64,000 nt of DNA. Source: an uncultured Candidatus Binatia bacterium (GTDB taxonomy: Bacteria; Desulfobacterota; Binatia; Bin18). Location of the stretch: assembly GCA_965214605.1 (NCBI GenBank), contig OZ243961.1, positions 2,688,001 to 2,752,000 on the forward strand, given 5' to 3'. This document shows, piece by piece, positions 940-47,082 of the stretch. The notes under the pieces were generated by a model that was not told the DNA's origin, made no database searches, and saw only the letters and a program-made list of their open reading frames with translations. The translations under genes were made by a program, and so were the position numbers. Positions within the stretch are counted from its first letter, which is position 1, and every line of letters begins with the position of its first letter.

Positions 940-3576
940 TCAGGAACCGTGCTCAATCAGCTCATACACCTTTTGCAGCGCTTCATCCAGCCGGGCGGGA
1001 TCTTTGCCGCCGGCCTGGGCAAAGTCTGGACGACCGCCCCCTCCGCCCCCAACGAGCGGGGCGAGCTGTGCCATCAGCTCCCCGGCCCGATACCGCTCGG
1101 TAATATCTTTGCTGACTGCGGCCAGCAGGCTGACCCGAGCGCCTTTGACCAACCCCAGGACGACCACCCCTGGCTGGAGTTTGTCCCGCAGCCGGTCGGC
1201 CATCTCCCGCAGGCCGGCGGCATCGACGCCCTCAACCCGGGTGGCAAGGACGTTGATGCCGTGCAGCTGTCGAGCAGCGGTGAGGAGTGCATCACTCTGT
1301 GAGCCGGCGACCTGGCTTTGCAACTCGGCTAGCTGCTTTTCCAGAGCGCGCTGTTGGGCTAAGAGGCGTTCTATCTTGTTGGTAACTTCTTCTTCTGCGC
1401 CTTTGACCAGCGTGCCAACCTCTTTGAGCAGCTGCTCTTTGTGGCGTACCCAGTCAAGGGCGCTGCCCCCTGTCGTGGCTTCGATGCGCCGCACCCCAGA
1501 GGCCACGCCACTCTCTGCTTTGAGCTTAAACAGGCCGATATCGCCGGTTCGGCTGACATGGGTCCCACCGCACAGCTCGGTTGAGAAGTTGCCCATCCGC
1601 ACCACGCGGACGCGCTCGCCGTACTTTTCGCCAAAAAAGGCGAGGGCGCCGCTTTTGAGAGCCTCATTGAGGGACATTTCGGCGCTGCTGACCTGGGCAT
1701 TTTCACGAATATGGGTATTGACCAGGGTCTCGATGTGCTCCAGCCTGTCCAGTTTGACCGGGTTGGTATGGGTAAAGTCAAAACGCAGGCGGTCCGGCGT
1801 CACTAGGGAGCCGGCTTGGCGGACATGGCTGCCTAAGACGTCTCTGAGGGCGGCGTGCATCACGTGCGTCGCCGAGTGATTGAGCCGGGTCGCTTCGCGC
1901 CGGGCGGCGTCGGGCAGCAGATGGACCCGGTCTCCGGTTTGAATCGATCCGTGCCTGACCCGGCCGCGATGGATTGTCAACAGCGGCTGGGGTTTCTGGG
2001 TATCGACAATCTGGACCCGATCCCCTCTGTCGGTCTCCAGCCTGCCGGTATCCCCCACTTGGCCGCCAGATTCTCCGTAGAAAGGCGTCTCTGCGGTGAT
2101 AATCTCGACCTCTTCGCCCTCGGTGACAGAACCGCTCCGTGCTTCTCCGTTGACCAGAATGGCTAGGATTTCCGATTCCCACTCGGTAATCCGATCGCCA
2201 ACAAAACGTGACTGCAGATCGGTCAGACCGGGGTTGAGAGAGACGAGGTCTTTTTGGCCCTCACGGGCGCGGTGGCGTTGCTGTTCCATGGCCCGCTCAA
2301 AACCGGCCCGGTCAACCTGAAACCCCTCGGACGCCAGGAAGTCTTCAGTCAGGTCAAGTGGGAAGCCATAGGTATCATACAGCCGAAAGGCAATCTCTCC
2401 GGACAAGCGTGCGGTCGTGCCGCTTCGCAAACTGCCGATCTCTTGCTCTAGTAGGACCAAGCCTCTGCCCAGGGTGTCTGAAAAGCGCTCTTCTTCGGTT
2501 CGAAGGACCTCACTCATATAGTCTTTGCGCTCGTTGAGTTCGGGGTAGGCCGAGCCCATCAGATCGGCCACACTCTCGGCAACGCGCCAGAAGAAGGGGT
2601 GCGTAAAGCCGATCAAGCGCCCGTGGCGTAGCGCCCGGCGTACGATCCGACGCAACACATAGCCCCGGCCGTCGTTGGTCGGCACGACGCCGTCGGCAAT
2701 CGCCAGGGCGGCGGCCCGGGCATGATCGGCAATCACGCGGAACGAGATGTCACTGTCTGGCCCACTGCCGTAGCGGGTCGTAGTCAGCGCTTCGGTGGCG
2801 CGGATGATGTCGCGCAGCAGATCGGAGTCATAATTGCTCGGGACGTCTTGGAGAACGGCGGCGATGCGTTCCAACCCCATGCCGGTGTCCACATGTGTTG
2901 CCGGTAAGTCGTCGAGCGAGGTGTCCGGGTTGCGGTTGTACTGAATAAACACCAAGTTCCATAGTTCAATGAAGCGGGGGCAGTCGGCGTTGACTCCGCA
3001 CGTGTGGCCCGGCGTGCTCGCGAGGTCACACGAACCCGGCCCCCGGTCGATGTGAATCTCAGAGCACGGGCCGCAGGGACCGGTTTCGCCCATCTCCCAA
3101 AAATTGTCCTTTTCCCCAAAGCGCAAAATCTGCTCCGGGTTGATAGCGGTCTTGGTCCGCCACAGCTCGTCGGCTTCATCGTCGGTCGTATACACGCTCG
3201 CCCACAGGTGGTTCGGGGGCAGCTTCCACACCTCGGTCAGCAGTTCCCAGGCCCATCCGATGGCTTCTGCCTTGTAATAATCGCCAAACGACCAGTTGCC
3301 CAGCATTTCAAAGAAGGTGTGATGATAGGTATCCCGGCCCACTTCTTCCAAGTCGTTGTGTTTACCCGATACCCGCAGACATTTCTGGGAATCAACCACC
3401 CGGGAGTGGGTCGGCTGTTCAAGCCCCAGAAAAATATTCTTGAACGGCACCATGCCCGCGTTGGTGAACAGGAGTGTCGGATCGCTGGCTGGAATGAGGG
3501 ACGCGCTGGGCACGACGCGATGGCCCCGGTCAGCAAAAAAACGCAGAAAACTGTCTCGAATTTCGTTTCCGGTCAT
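940..3576 (-). CDS. alaS: Alanine--tRNA ligase
   Basis: DPTLLFTNAGM, HHTFFEMLGNWSFGDY, HSATH and ELCGGTHV editing motifs, C-terminal GGGGGRPDFAQAGG. Confidence 0.99.
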   Translation of the reverse strand: MTGNEIRDSFLRFFADRGHRVVPSASLIPASDPTLLFTNAGMVPFKNIFLGLEQPTHSRVVDSQKCLRVSGKHNDLEEVGRDTYHHTFFEMLGNWSFGDYYKAEAIGWAWELLTEVWKLPPNHLWASVYTTDDEADELWRTKTAINPEQILRFGEKDNFWEMGETGPCGPCSEIHIDRGPGSCDLASTPGHTCGVNADCPRFIELWNLVFIQYNRNPDTSLDDLPATHVDTGMGLERIAAVLQDVPSNYDSDLLRDIIRATEALTTTRYGSGPDSDISFRVIADHARAAALAIADGVVPTNDGRGYVLRRIVRRALRHGRLIGFTHPFFWRVAESVADLMGSAYPELNERKDYMSEVLRTEEERFSDTLGRGLVLLEQEIGSLRSGTTARLSGEIAFRLYDTYGFPLDLTEDFLASEGFQVDRAGFERAMEQQRHRAREGQKDLVSLNPGLTDLQSRFVGDRITEWESEILAILVNGEARSGSVTEGEEVEIITAETPFYGESGGQVGDTGRLETDRGDRVQIVDTQKPQPLLTIHRGRVRHGSIQTGDRVHLLPDAARREATRLNHSATHVMHAALRDVLGSHVRQAGSLVTPDRLRFDFTHTNPVKLDRLEHIETLVNTHIRENAQVSSAEMSLNEALKSGALAFFGEKYGERVRVVRMGNFSTELCGGTHVSRTGDIGLFKLKAESGVASGVRRIEATTGGSALDWVRHKEQLLKEVGTLVKGAEEEVTNKIERLLAQQRALEKQLAELQSQVAGSQSDALLTAARQLHGINVLATRVEGVDAAGLREMADRLRDKLQPGVVVLGLVKGARVSLLAAVSKDITERYRAGELMAQLAPLVGGGGGGRPDFAQAGGKDPARLDEALQKVYELIEHGS

Positions 3577-3674: not shown

Positions 3675-3718
3675 GTGGTCGATGATGATCACCGAGGCTA
3701 CATGAGATCATCGGTCCC
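3675..3718 (-). repeat. Degenerate copy of dispersed ~44-bp palindromic element, spanning the recX stop
   Basis: Minus strand GGGACCGATGA-N22-TCATCGACCAC; each arm 9/11 to GTGAACGATGA / TCATCGTTCAC. Confidence 0.45.
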
Positions 3719-4237
3719 CTTTTCGTCCTGGGGCGGACTGCCCAACAGCTGTTCGGCAAACTCGCACGAATATCCCCGCCGCACCAGCAGGCGATACGCC
3801 CGGGCATAGGTCTGCGCTTGTTGTAGCCCGTCCGCAGGAAAGCGGCTAGACAGCAGCCTGCGGGCGGCGTCGAGGTCGAGGCCTGGTTGTCGGGCTGCAA
3901 GCGTTTGCGCAATCAGGGCGGAATCAAGATGGTGGCGGAGGAGTTTTTGCCGGATGGCGGCCGGGCCAAAGCCACGTGCCTGAAAGTGCTGGGTGAGCTC
4001 CGCGGCCAGGCGGGCATCGTTGAGATAGCCCTGGCGGGTGAGGCGGTCGACCGTTTGTACCACCGCGCGTGGGCTGAAGTGGCAGGGAGGAGCTCGGCCG
4101 GTCTGTGAGAGGGTTTGTACCACCGCGCGTGGGCTGAAGCCTTTGGTACGCATCTTTGCCGCTAAGCCGGGCGCACTATAGGCTCGTTGTCCCAGCAGAC
4201 GATAGGCGTAGTCGAGAGCGGTCAGAGTGCCAGTCAT
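3698..4237 (-). CDS. recX: Regulatory protein RecX with a 20-aa in-frame duplication-insertion
   Basis: AYRLLGQRAYS, GYLNDARLA, GPAAIRQKL, LVRRGYS; upstream of alaS. FSPRAVVQT occurs twice. Confidence 0.9.
   Translation of the reverse strand: MTGTLTALDYAYRLLGQRAYSAPGLAAKMRTKGFSPRAVVQTLSQTGRAPPCHFSPRAVVQTVDRLTRQGYLNDARLAAELTQHFQARGFGPAAIRQKLLRHHLDSALIAQTLAARQPGLDLDAARRLLSSRFPADGLQQAQTYARAYRLLVRRGYSCEFAEQLLGSPPQDEKGTDDLM
4053..4139. repeat. Repeat-spacer-repeat unit: 27-bp identical direct repeats around a 33-bp unique insert
   Basis: GTTTGTACCACCGCGCGTGGGCTGAAG at 4053-4079 and 4113-4139; insert 4080-4112; period 60. Confidence 0.95.
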
Positions 4238-4239
4238 GG

Positions 4240-5373
4240 TTATTTACGAAGACGCCGACGCTGTGTTCCAGTCGCCGAATCGTAGTCGATATAATCGCGC
4301 GGCGAAAAATATTCCCGCGCTCCCCGGGTGGCTAAATCTTGCAGCACGGAGTCGGCCAAGACCAGGGCGACCATGGCTTCGGCAATTGGGACGCCCCGAA
4401 TTGCCACGCACGGATCGTGTCGCCCGCGCGTGGCAACCGTGCGTGGCCGAAAGTTCACATCAATCGTGTTTTTGTCCTGGGGGATAGACGAAGTGGGTTT
4501 GACGACCAACCGCACGACGATCGGCGCGCCAGAGGAAATGCCGCCCAGCGTCCCGCCATGGTTATTGGTGACAAATCCCGTTGGGGATAATGCGTCGTTC
4601 ATCTGGCTCCCGCGCATGGCGGCAGCGGCAAATCCAGCCCCAAATTCGACCCCCTTGACCGCCGGGATGGACATTAGGGCTGTGGCAAGCTCAGCGTCGA
4701 GTTTGCCAAAAACCGGCTCGCCCAGCCCCGGCGGAACGCCTTCGGCCATGACCTCGATTATGCCCCCCACAGAATCCCGCTCTTTTCTGGCCTGTTCGAC
4801 CTCGGCGCGCATGGCAGCCACACTGTCCGGGTCAAGGCTGCGCAGCTCATTGTCTTCGACCGCGTCCCAAATACGGCTGTTGGCCCGCACCTTTCCGACC
4901 TGAATGACGCCGCCCCTAATGCGAATCCCGAAATGCGCCAGCAGCTGCTTGGCTAGGGCACCGGCAAACACCCGCCCCACGGATTCTCTGACCGAAGCCC
5001 TACCACCCCCGCGATGGTCCCGGTGGCCATACTTGGCAAAATAGGTAAAGTCGGCGTGTCCGGGGCGGAACAGCTGGGCGAGTTCGTCATAGTCTTTGGA
5101 GCGCATATCGGTGTTGAAGACCATGGCCATCAGCGGGGTCCCGGTGGTCTTGCCCGCAAACACGCCCGAGAAGATCTCAATCTTGTCCCCCTCTTTGCGT
5201 TGGGTCACCAGTTTTGATTGCCCAGGACGGCGACGGTCCATCTCGTGTTGAATGGCTTCGAGGTCAAGCGCAAAGTCGGCCGGAAAACCATCCACAACAA
5301 CGCCAACGCCTCTCCCGTGGCTCTCACCAAAGGTCGTCACGCGTAATACGGTTCCAAACGTGTTCCCTGGCAT
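4240..5373 (-). CDS. aroC: Chorismate synthase
   Basis: TTFGESHG, RPGHAD, GGGRAS-RE, NNHGGTLGGISSG, GRHDPCV. Confidence 0.98.
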   Translation of the reverse strand: MPGNTFGTVLRVTTFGESHGRGVGVVVDGFPADFALDLEAIQHEMDRRRPGQSKLVTQRKEGDKIEIFSGVFAGKTTGTPLMAMVFNTDMRSKDYDELAQLFRPGHADFTYFAKYGHRDHRGGGRASVRESVGRVFAGALAKQLLAHFGIRIRGGVIQVGKVRANSRIWDAVEDNELRSLDPDSVAAMRAEVEQARKERDSVGGIIEVMAEGVPPGLGEPVFGKLDAELATALMSIPAVKGVEFGAGFAAAAMRGSQMNDALSPTGFVTNNHGGTLGGISSGAPIVVRLVVKPTSSIPQDKNTIDVNFRPRTVATRGRHDPCVAIRGVPIAEAMVALVLADSVLQDLATRGAREYFSPRDYIDYDSATGTQRRRLRK

Positions 5374-5416
5374 GTGTTTCCTGACTCATTTGGTATCTTG
5401 AGAATAGGCGAAACAA

Positions 5417-6580
5417 TCACACGACCTCATCCTCTCGTAGACTGCGGATATCGGCTGTGCTCAACCCCAGCTCGCCCAAAATCTCATCGGTCTGTTGACC
5501 TTTCTCTGGGGTGGGAGTCCTGACTCCACCAGGAGTGCGGCTGAGGGTGACGGGCAGGCCGAGGACATGAATTTCACCGAGGTGGGGATGGGAAACCGGG
5601 GTGGCCAAGCCCAGGTGTTGGACCTGTTCGTTGGCAAAGACTTGGTCAATCGACAAAATAGGGCCGCTTGGCACCCCCGCGTTGTTGAGCGCGGCAATCC
5701 ATTCGGCGGCGGTTTTGCGGGCAAGTCGGTGTTCTATTTCACGGCTTAACTCGTCACGGTTGCGCGAGCGTCTGCCCGGTGAGGCAAAACGCGGGTCGTC
5801 GTACAGCTCATCGGCTTCAAGCACGTGACACAAGCGTTTCCACATATGCTGGCCCCCCGAGGCGATATTGATATGGCCGTCTTTGACCCTGAAGCTTCCG
5901 GTCGGGATACTGGTCGGGTGGTTGTTACCGGCTTGGGGCGGAACTTCCTGACCGATCAGCCAACGTGTGGCCTGAAAGTCGAGCATGGAGACCATGGCTT
6001 CGAGCAGCGAGGTCTGGATCCACTGTCCTTCGCCCGAGCGTTCGCGTTCGAGCAGGGCGACTAAAATTCCTTGGGCAGCGAGCAGGCCAGCGCTCAGGTC
6101 TGCAACCGGGATGCCGACCCGCCACGGTCCGCTGCCCGGCTGCCCGGTGATGCTCATCAGGCCGCCCATGCCTTGGGCAATTTGGTCGTAGCCAGGCCGG
6201 TCTTTATACGGCCCTGTCTGGCCAAAGCCGGAGATGCTGGCGTAGACCAGGCGTGGGTTGAGGGGTTTAAGCGACTCATAGGAGATGCCGAGACGGTTTT
6301 TCACGTCGGGTCGATAGTTTTCGACCAGCACGTCTGCCCTACACACCAGCCTTTTGAGAATGTCTTTGCCGCGCTCGTCTTTGAGATTGAGGACCAGACT
6401 GCGCTTGTTGCGGTGGAGATTCTGAAAATCAAAATGGTGCCGGCTGGTGCCTTCCTCATCGTTAGGCTGCTCAACTTTGATAACCTGGGCACCCATATCG
6501 GCCAGCTGGCGGACACAGGTTGGGCCGGAGCGGGCGCGGGTGAGATCAATCACACTGATATGTTCAAGGGGGAGTGCCAT
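5417..6580 (-). CDS. CaiB/BaiF class III CoA-transferase
   Basis: LADMGAQVIKVE, RNKRSLVLNLK, ADVLVENYRP, ASISGFGQTGP, GYD. Confidence 0.95.
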   Translation of the reverse strand: MALPLEHISVIDLTRARSGPTCVRQLADMGAQVIKVEQPNDEEGTSRHHFDFQNLHRNKRSLVLNLKDERGKDILKRLVCRADVLVENYRPDVKNRLGISYESLKPLNPRLVYASISGFGQTGPYKDRPGYDQIAQGMGGLMSITGQPGSGPWRVGIPVADLSAGLLAAQGILVALLERERSGEGQWIQTSLLEAMVSMLDFQATRWLIGQEVPPQAGNNHPTSIPTGSFRVKDGHINIASGGQHMWKRLCHVLEADELYDDPRFASPGRRSRNRDELSREIEHRLARKTAAEWIAALNNAGVPSGPILSIDQVFANEQVQHLGLATPVSHPHLGEIHVLGLPVTLSRTPGGVRTPTPEKGQQTDEILGELGLSTADIRSLREDEVV

Positions 6581-6794
6581 GGCTGTGGTTCCTTTTTGCT
6601 GCCCTCATCCATACCGCATACTGAAGGGGCTTGTCTAATATTTTGAGATTACGCCAAAATCCAATTTCACGTTCCAGTCCTGAACCGACGCATCCCAGGG
6701 AAACCGCAGAAACCGGATCTCTCCGAGCCTTCCCCCGCTCTCTCTGAAAAGTTCGCCTCATGACATTTCGATAGGCTGACCGCACGTAGCCCGC

Positions 6795-6812
6795 CTCTCA
6801 GAGCTCTGAGAG
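6795..6812. promoter_or_regulatory. Perfect 18-bp palindrome in divergent intergenic region, possible operator
   Basis: CTCTCAGAGCTCTGAGAG is its own reverse complement; function is inference. Confidence 0.35.
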
Positions 6813-6846
6813 CTTGATCCTCGGGGTATCTGAGAAGGGAACTACA

Positions 6847-7191
6847 GGCTCTGTCCCACCCAAAAGAAAGTCAAGTAGATTGTATGCTCTTTTGGTTTAG
6901 GATGCGCCGCTGGCTGCCCCTCTTCTTCCCGGGCGCATGGAGAATCATCGTTTATATGAGCGCATGGCTAATCCACAAACAGCTTCTTCCTGGGCGCATG
7001 GAGAATCATCGCTTTGATGAAATTGTTTATTCCTCTGAGCTTACTCGTCAAGCCGGCTCCGCCAAAGCGAATGAGTCACGTCAAACCTTGAGGGGAGCCA
7101 GGCGGTCCATTTGCTGAGAAACCTCTGCCTCCGAAAGGGGATGGCCCCATCCATCTTAGCATGTTCTTTGACAACGAATTTGACAGCAGCC
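6847..7191. mobile_element. Possible non-autonomous IS/MITE remnant
   Basis: Imperfect inverted ends GGCTCTGTC (6847) and GACAGCAGCC (7182-7191); no transposase visible. Confidence 0.2.
6922..7011. repeat. Repeat-spacer-repeat unit: 29-bp direct repeats (1 mismatch) around a 32-bp unique insert, CRISPR-like geometry
   Basis: CTTCTTCCYGGGCGCATGGAGAATCATCG at 6922-6950 and 6983-7011; insert TTTATATGAGCGCATGGCTAATCCACAAACAG; period 61. Confidence 0.93.
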
Positions 7192-7290
7192 CCCTTAAGA
7201 ATATCCAGCCAGATCCGGTTTGGCTGGACAACACCAGTGCATATATGCCATGTAGGGCCACAGGCAGAGATCTCAGTAAGGAGGATAGCC

Positions 7291-8805
7291 ATGACACTCC
7301 GCAAGCCAACCAGAGATGATCTAGAGCGTTTGGCCGAGGCGCATTATTTTGAACTGAGTGACGAAGAGCTTGAGGCTTTCCAGAACATGCTGCCCGCCAT
7401 GTTTGCGTCTCTAGACGAGCTAGACCAGAAGCCGTCCAATCTGCCGCCGGTCGTTTACCGGGACCGCGCCCCTGGGGGGCGGCCAAACCGACAGGACGAC
7501 CCACTAAACGCCATTGTGCGGCGCTGTTCGGTCAAAGGGGCGTCGTCGGGCAAGCTGGCTGGGAAACGGCTGGGAATCAAAGACAATGTGTGCATTGCCG
7601 GGCTGCCCATGACCTGCGCTTCCCTCGTCCTAGACGGCTATGTGCCGGATATCGACGCGACGATCATCACCCGGATGCTTGACGCCGGAGGGGAGGTGAC
7701 GGCTATCCTCAATATGGACAACTTCGCGTTCTCCGGCGGCGGCCATACCAGCGCCTACGGACCTACCCGCAACCCACATAACCCTAAACACAGCGCCGGT
7801 GGGTCTTCAGGGGGCTCTGGGGCTGCCCTGTCATACGATGACATCGACATGACGATTGGCGGTGACCAGGGCGGCTCCATACGTATCCCGGCCTCGTGGT
7901 GCGGGGTGGTCGGTCATAAGCCGACCCACAGCCTGGTCCCCTACACCGGTATTGTCGGCATTGACCCGACCTTTGACCATGCGGGGCCGATGACTAACAC
8001 GGTGGCCGATGCTGCCCTGCTGCTAGAGGTCATTGCCGGCAAGGACCCGTTGGACCCACGCCAGTACGAGGTGCCGGTCCACCCCTACACCCAGGAGCTG
8101 GACAAAGATATCGGTGGGCTGCGCCTGGGCGTGGTTCGTGAGGGGTTCGGCATGCCGGGATCTCAGCGGGGGGTAGATGCCAAAGTCCGTGAAGCGGTCA
8201 GCGCGCTGGGTGAGTTGGGGGCGGAGGTGCAAGAGGTTTCTATTCCGGCTCACCTTGAGGCGGGTGGCATTACCTGGGCGCTCATTGCGGAAGGCATGGC
8301 GGCCTTGGCCTATGGCAACGGGGTCGGCCATCATTGGAAGGGGCTCTACAACGAGAGCTTTGTCAACACGTTCGGCAAGTCCCTCCAGGCCCAGGCCCAA
8401 GATCTGCCTATTCAGGTGAAGCTGGTGGTGGTACTTGGCTCATATTTGAACACGGCCTACCATGGACGTCTGTACGCCAAGGCCCAGAACCAGCGCCGGG
8501 CGCTACGGGCGGCCTATGACAGTGTGTTGGAGCGGTGTGATGTGTTGGTCATGCCTACCACGCCGATGGTTGCCCAGCGGCATGAGCCCGCGCAGTCCGT
8601 CCAGCAGAATCTAAATTTTGGCTGGACCATGTTGGCCAATACCGCGCCGTTTGACATGACCGGCCATCCGTCGCTGAGCCTACCGTGTGGCAAGTCGGAG
8701 GGGCTGCCGGTTGGCTTGATGCTGACCGGCCGCCATTTTGAGGACGGTACGCTGCTGCGGGTGGGACACGTGTTTGAGCAGCAGATGGCTTGGCAGGCGC
8801 GCTAG
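7291..8805 (+). CDS. Amidase signature family enzyme
   Basis: ATG 7291 after AAGGAGG; GIKDN Lys, SAGGSSGGSGA, GGDQGGSIRIPASWCG. Confidence 0.96.
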   Translation: MTLRKPTRDDLERLAEAHYFELSDEELEAFQNMLPAMFASLDELDQKPSNLPPVVYRDRAPGGRPNRQDDPLNAIVRRCSVKGASSGKLAGKRLGIKDNVCIAGLPMTCASLVLDGYVPDIDATIITRMLDAGGEVTAILNMDNFAFSGGGHTSAYGPTRNPHNPKHSAGGSSGGSGAALSYDDIDMTIGGDQGGSIRIPASWCGVVGHKPTHSLVPYTGIVGIDPTFDHAGPMTNTVADAALLLEVIAGKDPLDPRQYEVPVHPYTQELDKDIGGLRLGVVREGFGMPGSQRGVDAKVREAVSALGELGAEVQEVSIPAHLEAGGITWALIAEGMAALAYGNGVGHHWKGLYNESFVNTFGKSLQAQAQDLPIQVKLVVVLGSYLNTAYHGRLYAKAQNQRRALRAAYDSVLERCDVLVMPTTPMVAQRHEPAQSVQQNLNFGWTMLANTAPFDMTGHPSLSLPCGKSEGLPVGLMLTGRHFEDGTLLRVGHVFEQQMAWQAR

Positions 8806-18231: not shown

Positions 18232-18417
18232 TACGCTTCTTGACTTCGAGCCTCCAAGTGTCTCTGTCAATGTGGTGGTTTGGATGGTTGCGGTAGCGGA
18301 AAAACGATGGAGTGTCTCTGTTTAAGGTGGTGTGAATGGTTGCGGGTAGCGGAGGAACAACGGAGTATCTCTATTGATGTGGTGGCGTGGATGGTTGCGG
18401 TAGCGGAAAAACGACAG
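18183..18417. repeat. Degenerate tandem repeat, 53-54 bp unit (3 clear copies plus 1 decayed)
   Basis: Units start 18257, 18311, 18364 (AGTGTCTCTG...ATGGTTGCGGTAGCGGAAAAACGA); weaker copy from 18183. Confidence 0.85.
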
Positions 18418-18598
18418 AGATTAAGATAGGGGTGGGGAGGGGGAATTTTCCCCCTGTTCCTTGATTTCCCCCCACTCCTATCAAAAAATCTTCCTTCAGG
18501 CAAGGCCCTAGCCTAGGTGCGCCCGCTCAAGAGGAAAAACACCGGGAGAAGGCTGGAACAGACCCCAGGGCGCTTCCCTGACCTGCTGCTCTGTATCT

Positions 18599-46728: not shown

Positions 46729-47082
46729 CTACGTGGTGCGCCGTAACAGCTCGGCCAAGACTTGGCTCTGTCGTTCGAGCGCTTCGCCATGCCGTTCGAG
46801 CGCTTGGCTCTGTCGCTCGAGCGCTTCGCCATGCCGTTCGAGCGCTTGGCTCTGTCGCTCCAGCATCTGCCCCAACGCCTCGCCCTGTCGCTCGAACGCC
46901 TGCCCCTGCCGTTGGAACGCGGCGGCTAGCTCATCAATTTCTCGATCGCGCCGGCGGCCGGCCTTCTTCATCTGGAACAAGCCCCCAACAATGCATCCCA
47001 AGCCTATTATGCTGGCGATAGCCTGAATGATCTGGACCTGATCTGAGATCGACAATACGATGAATTGGTAGAGAGGATCCAT
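46729..47082 (-). CDS. Small membrane-anchored heptad-repeat coiled-coil protein
   Basis: TM IIQAIASIIGLGCIVGGLF, then LERQSQA / LERHGEA repeats. Confidence 0.75.
   Translation of the reverse strand: MDPLYQFIVLSISDQVQIIQAIASIIGLGCIVGGLFQMKKAGRRRDREIDELAAAFQRQGQAFERQGEALGQMLERQSQALERHGEALERQSQALERHGEALERQSQVLAELLRRTT
46761..46920. repeat. 21/42-bp coding tandem repeat
   Basis: CTTGGCTCTGTCGYTCGAGCGCTTCGCCATGCCGTTCGAGCG repeated about 2.5 times, plus degenerate 21-mers. Confidence 0.92.

What the first reader, a model, noticed from the sequence alone, without database searches (positions are those of the whole stretch)
4053..7011. Two different repeat-spacer-repeat units within 3 kb: possible genome-wide spacer-insertion mutagenesis
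Seen: two units with unrelated repeat sequences but nearly the same geometry (period 60 in a gene, 61 intergenic). Inference: different repeats with the same ruler point to one integrase acting at many loosely palindromic sites. Selection would keep only frame-preserving events in genes. If common, this would be an undescribed natural source of insertions and a dispersed record of foreign DNA that array finders needing 3 or more repeats miss. Two cases are suggestive only.
Basis: inference. Interest (0 to 1): 0.8.

Follow-up and report, generated by a model that had tools for sequence, protein, structure and literature searches.

The report
Stray CRISPR spacer insertions across genome
The two small repeat-spacer-repeat units look like CRISPR spacers pasted into the wrong place by the cell's own spacer-inserting enzymes, one of them adding 20 amino acids to the RecX protein, and the same genome holds about two dozen more such stray insertions.

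Summary
Both units are real. The recX unit (27-nt perfect repeat, 33-nt unique insert, period 60) is a recent, precise insertion. 10 of 10 relatives' RecX lack the 20 residues. Contigs of three public runs from two studies carry the exact empty site with otherwise identical flanks, and a fourth run carries the filled site.

The geometry is that of the genome's own type I-E CRISPR array (28-nt repeat, 33-nt spacers). A genome-wide scan found 44 two-copy units with an unrelated spacer. 38 of them have periods of 58-80, with peaks at 61 and 73-78. These fit the native I-E, II-C, I-D and III-B arrays. A shuffled genome gave none.

10 of 36 orphan spacers are sharply bounded copies of other places in the same genome. 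The I-E-like duplicated targets resemble the native repeat.

Best reading: off-target integration by Cas1-Cas2. The intergenic unit (29+32=61) fits less surely, because its spacer holds a partial copy of the repeat core and no empty allele or source was found.

The process was described in E. coli (Nivala et al. 2018), so this is a rich natural instance, not a new kind.

The parts
3698..4237 (-). recX gene (179 aa) that carries the 60-nt insertion
   Evidence: Pfam RecX_HTH1 (residues 7-43) and RecX_HTH2 (73-113). It lies between alaS (940-3576) and chorismate synthase (4240-5373).
4053..4079 (.). recX unit, copy 1 of the 27-nt duplicated target (encodes FSPRAVVQT on the minus strand)
   Evidence: 100% identical pair. 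The motif is present once in 10 of 10 relatives' RecX.
4080..4112 (.). recX unit, 33-nt insert ('spacer'). Source unknown.
   Evidence: Same length as 94 of 95 native I-E spacers. No second copy in the own genome, in 7 genomes of the genus at up to 3 mismatches, in metagenome or viral contigs by exact match, or in the phage and plasmid collections.
4113..4139 (.). recX unit, copy 2 of the 27-nt duplicated target
   Evidence: Contigs of runs X1, X2 and X6 join 4052 directly to 4113 (skip 60, 27 letters fit either side).
6922..6950 (.). intergenic unit, copy 1 of the 29-nt repeat
   Evidence: The 29-mer occurs only at these two places in the genome at up to 7 substitutions.
6951..6982 (.). intergenic unit, 32-nt 'spacer'. 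It holds a 12-of-14 copy of the repeat core.
   Evidence: No source found.
6983..7011 (.). intergenic unit, copy 2 of the 29-nt repeat (one mismatch, at 6991, in this assembly)
   Evidence: Base 6991 reads C in contigs of X4 and X6, which makes the copies identical.

Best explanation
The units are products of off-target (non-CRISPR) spacer integration by the genome's own adaptation machinery. For these two units that is the type I-E Cas1-Cas2 integrase.

Proposed course: the integrase, loaded with a 32-33-bp prespacer, attacked the two strands of a chromosomal site 27-29 bp apart. The site only loosely resembles the I-E repeat (C at positions 7-9, a central CGCG, G at 20-21). Gap repair then duplicated the 27-29 bp on either side of the insert.

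In recX the stagger was 27 rather than the usual 28, so the insertion is 60 nt. It adds 20 in-frame residues at the third helix of the first RecX three-helix domain.

Shown: the insertion and target duplication in recX, the match of geometry to the native array, the presence of a complete I-E system, the resemblance of the target set to the repeat, and the copy-paste origin of other orphan spacers.

Inferred: that Cas1-Cas2 did it, that selection retained recX because it is in frame, and that orphan units are not processed into crRNA.
For: (1) recX is an insertion. 10 of 10 relatives' RecX lack the 20 residues and have one FSPxxV copy. Contigs of X1 and X2 (study P1) and X6 (study P3) skip exactly 4053-4112 with 0 other letters in the pieces shown. 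A 14.6-kb contig of X4 holds the filled form.

(2) Geometry. The native I-E array has a 28-nt repeat and 33-nt spacers (94 of 95), period 61. It lies beside Cas3, Cse1, Cse2, Cas7, Cas5, Cas6e, Cas1e and Cas2e.

(3) Genome-wide scan. There are 57 single-pair units, 44 with 20 or more unrelated bases between the copies. 38 of the 44 have periods of 58-80, including 7 at 61. For contig C1 the count is 36 of 42; a binomial test run with 35 of 42 gave p=2.6e-20, and 9 of 42 in periods 60-62 gave p=3.9e-7. The shuffled contig gave 0.

(4) Copy-paste origin. 10 of 36 orphan spacers have a second copy of 28 nt or more elsewhere in the genome, against 28 of 1000 random 30-40-mers (p=3.9e-8). The matches end at the spacer borders for most of them; the first base of the insert differs from the source in two I-E-like units, and two matches are imperfect (32-33 nt for five I-E-like units, 30 nt for the 36+30 unit).

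(5) Target resemblance. Ten I-E-like duplicated segments match the native repeat at 13.3 of 28 positions on average, against 8.95 (sd 2.0) for random sites scored the same way. 0 of 100,000 resamples reach that value.

(6) Other geometries track other native systems: a 36+30 unit and the II-C array; 35-42 + 31-41 units and the I-D and III-B arrays.

(7) Relatives. G007 carries the same Cas1 types. It has 5 units in 1.2 Mb, all at periods 66-78, two with perfect 37- and 40-nt repeats. G002 has one Cas1 hit. It has 6 imperfect units spread over periods 44-132.
Against: No experiment ties Cas1-Cas2 to these events.

The source of both window spacers is unknown.

No clear PAM emerges from the five I-E-like protospacers and two native self-matches. 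In two units the first base of the insert differs from the source.

No leader-like flank is conserved.

For the 35-42-nt class, likeness to the native repeats is mostly not significant. Only 3 of 14 units reach p<0.01 against any one repeat. 6 of 14 begin with GT or end with AC, against 10% expected (p=0.002).

The intergenic unit's spacer holds a 12-of-14 copy of the repeat core. That motif occurs nowhere else in the genome, which plain integration of unrelated DNA does not predict. No empty allele of this unit was seen: X4 and X6 have it filled, and the pieces listed for X1 and X2 do not cover it.

Some of the 38 units at periods 58-80 are clearly something else. Two are 72-nt protein-repeat pairs at C1:1510591 and 1511814. 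Two are copies of an 80-nt pair. One unit is counted on both C1 and C4.
Confidence: 0.8

Rival explanations
1. The intergenic unit alone is not an integration product. It is a set of three related binding sites or iteron-like repeats (core GCGCATGG-NN-AATC at 6933, 6960 and 6994) in the divergent promoter region between the CoA-transferase and amidase genes. Its period of 61 is a coincidence.
For: The core motif occurs 3 times in 4.37 Mb, all inside this unit. Likeness of spacer to repeat has p=0.0006-0.0015 by shuffling. Identity is 6 of 9 just 3' of each copy. No empty allele and no protospacer were found.
Against: Identity is perfect over exactly 29 nt in X4 and X6 and then drops sharply. 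The period and the 29+32 split match nine other I-E-like loci in this genome. Only 6 of 44 units lie outside periods 58-80. The spacer is not similar to either flank, so this is not a decayed tandem duplication. The duplicated segment matches the native repeat at 13 of 28 positions, including C7-C9.
Confidence: 0.3
2. The units arose by replication slippage or template switching (short templated insertions with flanking duplication), without any Cas protein.
For: Direct repeats of 27-29 nt can promote slippage. The empty recX allele could in principle arise by deletion between the repeats.
Against: Slippage duplicates adjacent sequence, but the inserts are unrelated to their flanks. In ten other units the inserts are copies of places up to megabases away; eight are full spacer length, one covers 28 of 34 nt and one 37 of 41 nt. 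Insert and duplication lengths track the native arrays of four systems. All 10 relatives have the empty recX form, so the filled form is the derived one.
Confidence: 0.05
3. The units are decayed remnants of true CRISPR arrays, or mini-arrays brought in by mobile elements.
For: Two-repeat mini-arrays exist. One with the genuine V-C repeat lies at C1:176444.
Against: Each locus has its own repeat sequence. In recX the repeat is conserved host coding sequence, present once in every relative. Neither repeat occurs elsewhere in the genome.
Confidence: 0.03
4. The units are assembly artefacts of a metagenome-assembled genome.
For: The genome is a 9-contig assembly whose relatives are all MAGs.
Against: Independent contigs of public runs reproduce the filled recX form (X4) and the filled intergenic form (X4, X6). 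Others hold the clean empty recX form. X4 may be the source sample, so it is not independent for the filled form.
Confidence: 0.01

Closest known systems
Off-target ('non-canonical') spacer integration and neo-CRISPR loci (Nivala, Shipman and Church 2018, Nat Microbiol 3:310)
   Same: A spacer-sized insert sits between a duplicated, repeat-sized stretch of non-CRISPR DNA, made by the type I-E integrase. Repeated use of one site can start a new array. Here C1:711165 has three repeats and two spacers.
   Different: That work used E. coli overproducing Cas1-Cas2. A citing preprint calls the natural evidence 'circumstantial' in two other species. Here the events are natural, number about 24 high-confidence loci, fit four co-resident systems, include an in-frame insertion in a housekeeping gene, and one is still polymorphic in public runs. 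I could not read the paper itself. What I say of it rests on passages in citing papers and on recall.
Isolated or orphan CRISPR arrays (Shmakov et al. 2020, CRISPR J 3:535)
   Same: A citing preprint names off-target spacer acquisition as one of three proposed origins of arrays far from cas genes.
   Different: That survey dealt with arrays that array finders detect. The units here have two repeats and would mostly be missed. The paper is not held; its content is known to me only from the citing passage and recall.
In vitro non-CRISPR integration by Pyrococcus furiosus Cas1-Cas2 (PMC6698737) and Streptococcus thermophilus type II-A Cas1-Cas2 (PMC6895254)
   Same: Paired attacks one repeat length apart at sites that share some positions with the repeat or the leader-repeat junction, with a preference for G at the attacked base (passages read). 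Here 6 of 14 long-class duplications begin with GT or end with AC. The II-C-like unit's target matches the II-C repeat at 18 of 36 positions (p=0.003).
   Different: Those are plasmid assays with purified proteins. Here the products are fixed or segregating in a chromosome.
Target-site duplications of transposable elements and casposons
   Same: A staggered cut followed by fill-in gives a direct duplication.
   Different: From recall, duplications by IS elements are a few bp to about 15 bp and flank an element with terminal inverted repeats and genes. Here the duplication (27-42 bp) is about as long as the insert (30-41 bp). No inverted repeat was reported in either unit.

Membership tests
Off-target CRISPR spacer integration product (neo-CRISPR unit) | Direct duplication of the target, about as long as the native repeat | tested here: met
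   27 nt (recX) and 29 nt (intergenic), against a native I-E repeat of 28 nt.
Off-target CRISPR spacer integration product (neo-CRISPR unit) | Insert as long as the native spacers | tested here: met
   33 and 32 nt. 94 of 95 native I-E spacers are 33 nt.
Off-target CRISPR spacer integration product (neo-CRISPR unit) | The ancestral or allelic site has one target copy and no insert | tested here: met
   Met for recX: 10 of 10 relatives, and empty-site contigs in X1, X2 and X6. Not obtained for the intergenic unit: the region cannot be aligned in relatives, and X4 and X6 have it filled.
Off-target CRISPR spacer integration product (neo-CRISPR unit) | A matching Cas1-Cas2 adaptation module in the same genome | tested here: met
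   Cas1e (TIGR03638, 291.9 bits) and Cas2e (TIGR01873) beside the 61-period array.
Off-target CRISPR spacer integration product (neo-CRISPR unit) | The target resembles the CRISPR repeat | tested here: met
   Set of ten: mean 13.3 of 28 against a null of 8.95. recX alone 13 of 28, intergenic alone 13 of 28, each about 2 sd above the null mean.
Off-target CRISPR spacer integration product (neo-CRISPR unit) | The insert is a copy of DNA from elsewhere (protospacer), with a PAM | tested here: inconclusive
   No source was found for the two window spacers. A source was found for 10 of 36 orphan spacers genome-wide. No consistent PAM emerged.
Off-target CRISPR spacer integration product (neo-CRISPR unit) | Formation depends on Cas1-Cas2 | not testable with these tools
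   Needs an integration assay or genetics.
Canonical CRISPR array | Three or more copies of a repeat shared with a cas-linked array, plus a leader | tested here: not met
   Two copies each. The repeats are unique in the genome. No leader-like flank is conserved.
Tandem duplication / VNTR | The whole period is repeated | tested here: not met
   The spacers are unlike the flanks: p=0.38-0.76 for the intergenic unit, 0.24-0.82 for recX. Tandem Repeats Finder lists neither unit.
RecX (recombination regulator) | RecX three-helix domains | tested here: met
   PF21982 RecX_HTH1 and PF02631 RecX_HTH2, both over the cut-off. The AlphaFold2 model is all-helical, mean pLDDT 82.

The most novel reading that the evidence does not exclude
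In this uncultured Binatia lineage, off-target integration by four co-resident adaptation modules (I-E, II-C, I-D, III-B) is a frequent and ongoing natural mutational process: about 24 high-confidence loci, or 5-6 per Mb. It makes in-frame protein insertions that segregate in natural populations. It seeds new arrays that have already taken up a second spacer (C1:711165, C1:1706197). It also leaves a record of naive spacer uptake that autoimmunity has not censored: 28% of orphan spacers are self-derived, against 2% in the native arrays.
Probability: 0.7. Interest if true: 0.7.

Novelty: new member of a known kind. Interest (0 to 1): 0.6.

Why it matters
Off-target spacer integration has been shown mainly with overproduced enzymes or in vitro. 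A citing preprint states that its frequency in nature is unclear.

This genome gives a natural catalogue with known sources and known targets for several integrase types at once.
- It can be mined for the in vivo target rules of I-E, II-C, I-D and III-B integrases.
- It shows that the process can alter a housekeeping protein without destroying it.
- It shows young arrays being born.
- The contrast between orphan spacers (10 of 36 self-derived) and native spacers (4 of 210) is a natural measure of how strongly autoimmunity purges self spacers.
- Array finders that need three repeats miss all of this.

Tried and rejected
Empty site for the intergenic unit. A DNA search of 12 relatives found only the gene ends, and the intergenic DNA could not be aligned.

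Source of the two window spacers. There was no exact hit in metagenome contigs or viral contigs. There was no hit at up to 3 mismatches in 7 genomes of the genus. There was no hit in the phage or plasmid collections at E up to 1.

PAM. Flanks of five I-E-like protospacers and two native self-matches gave no consensus.

Leader-like flank. None is conserved among the ten I-E-like units.

Excision test for gene disruption. It was too noisy in this 58% G+C genome, where long spurious frames are common, and I draw no count from it. Pfam scans of 20 ORFs around 16 units gave 8 ORFs with a family. Units lie at gene ends or between genes where that could be told.

Decayed 61-nt tandem duplication for the intergenic unit: rejected.

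A general role for likeness between spacer and target in choosing the site: rejected. Only 2 of 30 units have p<0.01.

The full texts of Nivala 2018 and Shmakov 2020 are not held. I did not open supplements, and those of the in vitro papers may list off-target sites that bear on the comparison. Read laying used contigs only, so the parts of X1 and X2 without listed pieces (6877-7015) say nothing.
Full report
OBSERVATION. The window holds two repeat-spacer-repeat units.

Unit 1 has a 27-nt perfect direct repeat at 4053-4079 and 4113-4139, with 33 unrelated bases between the copies (period 60).

Unit 2 has a 29-nt repeat at 6922-6950 and 6983-7011, with one mismatch and 32 bases between the copies (period 61). 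The repeat finder extends this pair to 38 nt at 89% identity.

Tandem Repeats Finder lists neither unit. No inverted repeat was reported in either. The two repeat sequences are unrelated, and neither occurs elsewhere in the genome.

Unit 1 lies in an ORF at 3698-4237 (-). That ORF matches Pfam RecX_HTH1 and RecX_HTH2 and sits between alaS and chorismate synthase. Unit 2 lies in the 710-nt divergent region between a family III CoA-transferase gene and an amidase gene.

THE recX UNIT IS A RECENT, PRECISE INSERTION.

RecX of 10 of 10 relatives lacks exactly 20 residues and carries a single FSPxxV motif. Six of these are from the same genus and four from the same family. G007 matched only in part and was left out of the alignment.

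Contigs built from public runs were laid on the window.
- X1 and X2 (study P1) and X6 (study P3, a 30.3-kb contig) join 4052 to 4113. This skips 60 nt, and 27 letters fit either side. The pieces shown have no other differences.
- X4 (study P3) has a 14.6-kb contig with the filled form. X4 may be the source sample, so it is not independent for the filled form.

The empty form is therefore ancestral, and both alleles exist in near-identical populations.

An AlphaFold2 model built on the 11-sequence alignment (mean pLDDT 82) keeps the helical RecX fold at about 90 pLDDT. It shows the insert as a lower-confidence extra helix (residues 36-46) and loop (47-55) ahead of the native third helix. This is a prediction only.

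THE GEOMETRY IS THAT OF THE HOST'S OWN CRISPR SYSTEMS.

The genome (4.37 Mb, 9 contigs, 58% G+C) belongs to the candidate class Binatia, judged from the titles of its relatives' records. It has five CRISPR-Cas systems:
- a complete type I-E system beside an array of 96 repeats, with a 28-nt repeat and 33-nt spacers in 94 of 95 cases;
- type II-C (Cas9 of 1080 aa; 36-nt repeat, 30-nt spacers);
- type III-B with its own Cas1 (37-nt repeat, spacers mostly 39 to 47 nt);
- type I-D with Cas4 and Cas1 (37-nt repeat, spacers about 35-40 nt);
- type V-C (Cas12c and Cas1; about 25-nt repeat, 18-19-nt spacers).

I searched periods 30-160 for windows with at least 22 of 24 matching bases.
- This gave 57 single-pair units. 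44 of them have at least 20 unrelated bases between the copies.
- 38 of the 44 have periods of 58-80. Seven are at 61, one each at 58, 60 and 62, six at 73, and eight at 76-78.
- Only 6 lie elsewhere (54, 93, 102, 107, 119, 147).
- For contig C1 the count is 36 of 42. A binomial test run with 35 of 42 against 23 of 131 period values gave p=2.6e-20. For 9 of 42 at periods 60-62 it gave p=3.9e-7.
- A shuffled contig gave none.

Not all 38 are integration products. Two are 72-nt protein-repeat pairs. Two are copies of one 80-nt pair. One locus is assembled twice, on C1 and C4.

My curated high-confidence set, drawn, requires copies that are perfect or differ at one base over the core, and a geometry that fits a native system. 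It has 24 loci:
- nine I-E-like loci (duplication 27-29 nt, insert 32-34 nt): C1:91695, 125256, 500128, 711165, 1399850, 2692053 (recX), 2694922 (intergenic), 3921609 and 4089123;
- one II-C-like locus (36+30) at C1:4250365;
- eleven I-D- or III-B-like loci (33-42 + 31-44);
- three intermediate loci (26-32 + 33-39).

C1:711165 has three repeats and two spacers (33 and 32 nt). C1:1706197 has three repeats with spacers of 33 and 37 nt. Both are arrays in the making.

THE INSERTS ARE COPIED DNA.

10 of 36 orphan spacers have a second copy of 28 nt or more elsewhere in the same genome. Random 30-40-mers do so in 28 of 1000 cases (p=3.9e-8).

Most matches end at or within one base of the spacer borders. 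The lengths are 33 of 33, 32 of 33 (twice) and 33 of 34 for I-E-like units, 30 of 30 for the II-C-like unit, and 34 of 35 and 37 of 41 for longer units.

One I-E-like spacer comes from the I-E leader itself. Another comes from the CARF gene of the III-B locus.

Of 210 native spacers, only 4 hit non-array places of the genome. I infer that orphan units escape the purge of self-targeting spacers because they are not made into crRNA. That step is not shown.

TARGETS RESEMBLE THE REPEAT.

Ten I-E-like duplicated segments were each scored in the better of two orientations, anchored at either end. They match the native repeat at 13.3 of 28 positions on average. Random sites scored in the same way give 8.95 (sd 2.0), and 0 of 100,000 resamples reach 13.3.
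- C at positions 7-9 is kept in 6 to 9 of 10.
- G at positions 20-21 is kept in 7 to 8 of 10.
- The central C-CGCG is kept in 6 to 7 of 10.
- The per-position counts are inflated by the choice of orientation. The test of the mean allows for that.

For the longer classes the likeness is mostly weak. Even so, 6 of 14 begin with GT or end with AC, against 10% expected (p=0.002). The II-C-like target matches the II-C repeat at 18 of 36 positions (p=0.003).

CONTROLS IN RELATIVES.
- The first 1.2 Mb of G007 was scanned. G007 is in the same genus and carries the same kinds of Cas1. It holds 5 units, all at periods 66-78. Two have perfect 37- and 40-nt repeats. None is at 61.
- The first 1.2 Mb of G002 (same genus, a single Cas1 hit) holds 6 units. 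All are imperfect, at periods 44, 70, 72, 104, 126 and 132.
- The first 1.2 Mb of G000 holds 9 units.

CONTEXT AND SELECTION.

Where Pfam could place genes, period-61 units lie between genes or at gene ends.
- C1:4089123 lies between a CDP-alcohol phosphatidyltransferase gene and a diacylglycerol-kinase-like gene.
- C1:711165 lies just 3' of a polysaccharide deacetylase gene.

Other units touch the last 16 codons of an LPG-synthase gene or the 5' end of an integrase-like ORF.

recX is the only clear mid-gene case, and it is in frame because the duplication is 27 nt rather than 28. This fits selection against frameshifts, but it rests on one case.

THE INTERGENIC UNIT IS LESS CERTAIN.

It has the I-E geometry (29+32). 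Its copies are identical in X4 and X6, where base 6991 reads C. Identity drops sharply after 29 nt.

However, its spacer holds GCGCATGGCTAATC, a 12-of-14 copy of the repeat core. The motif GCGCATGGNNAATC occurs only three times in the genome, all within this unit. Shuffling gives p=0.0006-0.0015 for this likeness. The spacer is unlike both flanks, so this is not a decayed tandem duplication.

Only one other unit of 30 shows likeness between spacer and repeat. No empty allele and no source were found.

X6 has the filled intergenic unit but the empty recX site. So the intergenic unit predates the recX event.

I put about 0.6 on integration for this unit and about 0.3 on a regulatory triple repeat.

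COMPARISON WITH WHAT IS KNOWN.

Off-target integration by the I-E integrase, and the birth of 'neo-CRISPR' loci, were reported by Nivala, Shipman and Church in 2018. I saw only citing passages.
- One says that rare off-target events were detected in E. coli overproducing Cas1-Cas2.
- One says that natural evidence was 'circumstantial' in two other species and that the natural frequency is unclear.

A 2026 preprint lists off-target acquisition among three proposed origins of isolated arrays, citing Shmakov et al. 2020. Neither primary paper is held.

In vitro work on P. furiosus and S. thermophilus shows paired attacks one repeat length apart at repeat-like non-CRISPR sites.

My searches found no report of a natural genome with dozens of such events from several systems. 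The library lacks most subscription journals, so this is not proof of absence.

VERDICT. The claim that it is undescribed is wrong. This is a new and unusually rich natural member of a known kind.

Noticed in passing
G000:C1:607406-613543 (outside the window); also C1:176444-176512: A fifth CRISPR system, type V-C: Cas12c of 1414 aa (NF033950, E=0) and a Cas1 of 351 aa. Its array has a repeat of about 25 nt and spacers of 18-19 nt (period 43-44), and many of the spacers are identical copies. The same repeat forms a two-repeat mini-array at C1:176444. A similar period-43 array lies beside Cas1 hits in G007 (678575-679118).
   Followed up: partly
G000:C1:711165-711386 and C1:1706197-1706361: Two off-target sites that have taken up a second spacer. 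Each has three near-identical copies of a non-CRISPR repeat (29/29/28 nt with spacers of 33 and 32 nt; about 32 nt with spacers of 33 and 37 nt). They look like arrays being born. C1:711165 also has a degenerate fourth copy.
   Followed up: partly
G000:C1:125256-125344 and C1:2307693-2307725: The spacer of this I-E-like orphan unit is a 33-of-33 copy of the I-E leader, 26-58 nt upstream of the first repeat. Another orphan spacer (C1:1399850) is copied from the CARF gene of the III-B locus.
   Followed up: partly
G000:C1:3218149, 3170465, 51299, 337619: Four native spacers (two I-E, two III-B) match non-array places of the own genome, three of them perfectly and in full. I did not examine whether the targets are prophages. 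One I-E spacer and one III-B spacer also overlap each other's sequence.
   Followed up: no
G000:C1:500217-500233: Seven nt downstream of orphan unit C1:500128 lies AATCAGGAGG. This equals the native I-E leader-repeat junction (AATCAGGA|GG). It may be chance, or just a ribosome-binding site.
   Followed up: no
G002:C1:1-400000: The first 400 kb or so of this relative's single contig is AT-rich and full of microsatellite-like arrays, which account for most of the 36 multi-copy clusters. It looks unlike the remainder and may be a chimeric assembly.
   Followed up: no
window 18274-18419 and 46761-46920: Tandem repeats with units of 53 nt (2.7 copies) and of 21 and 42 nt. They are unrelated to the finding.
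   Followed up: no
window 7096 and 7132: The X6 contig lacks 1 nt at 7096 and 23 nt at 7132, upstream of the amidase gene. It has five other base differences in 5969-7300. So the X6 population differs from the window here while being identical around recX.
   Followed up: no
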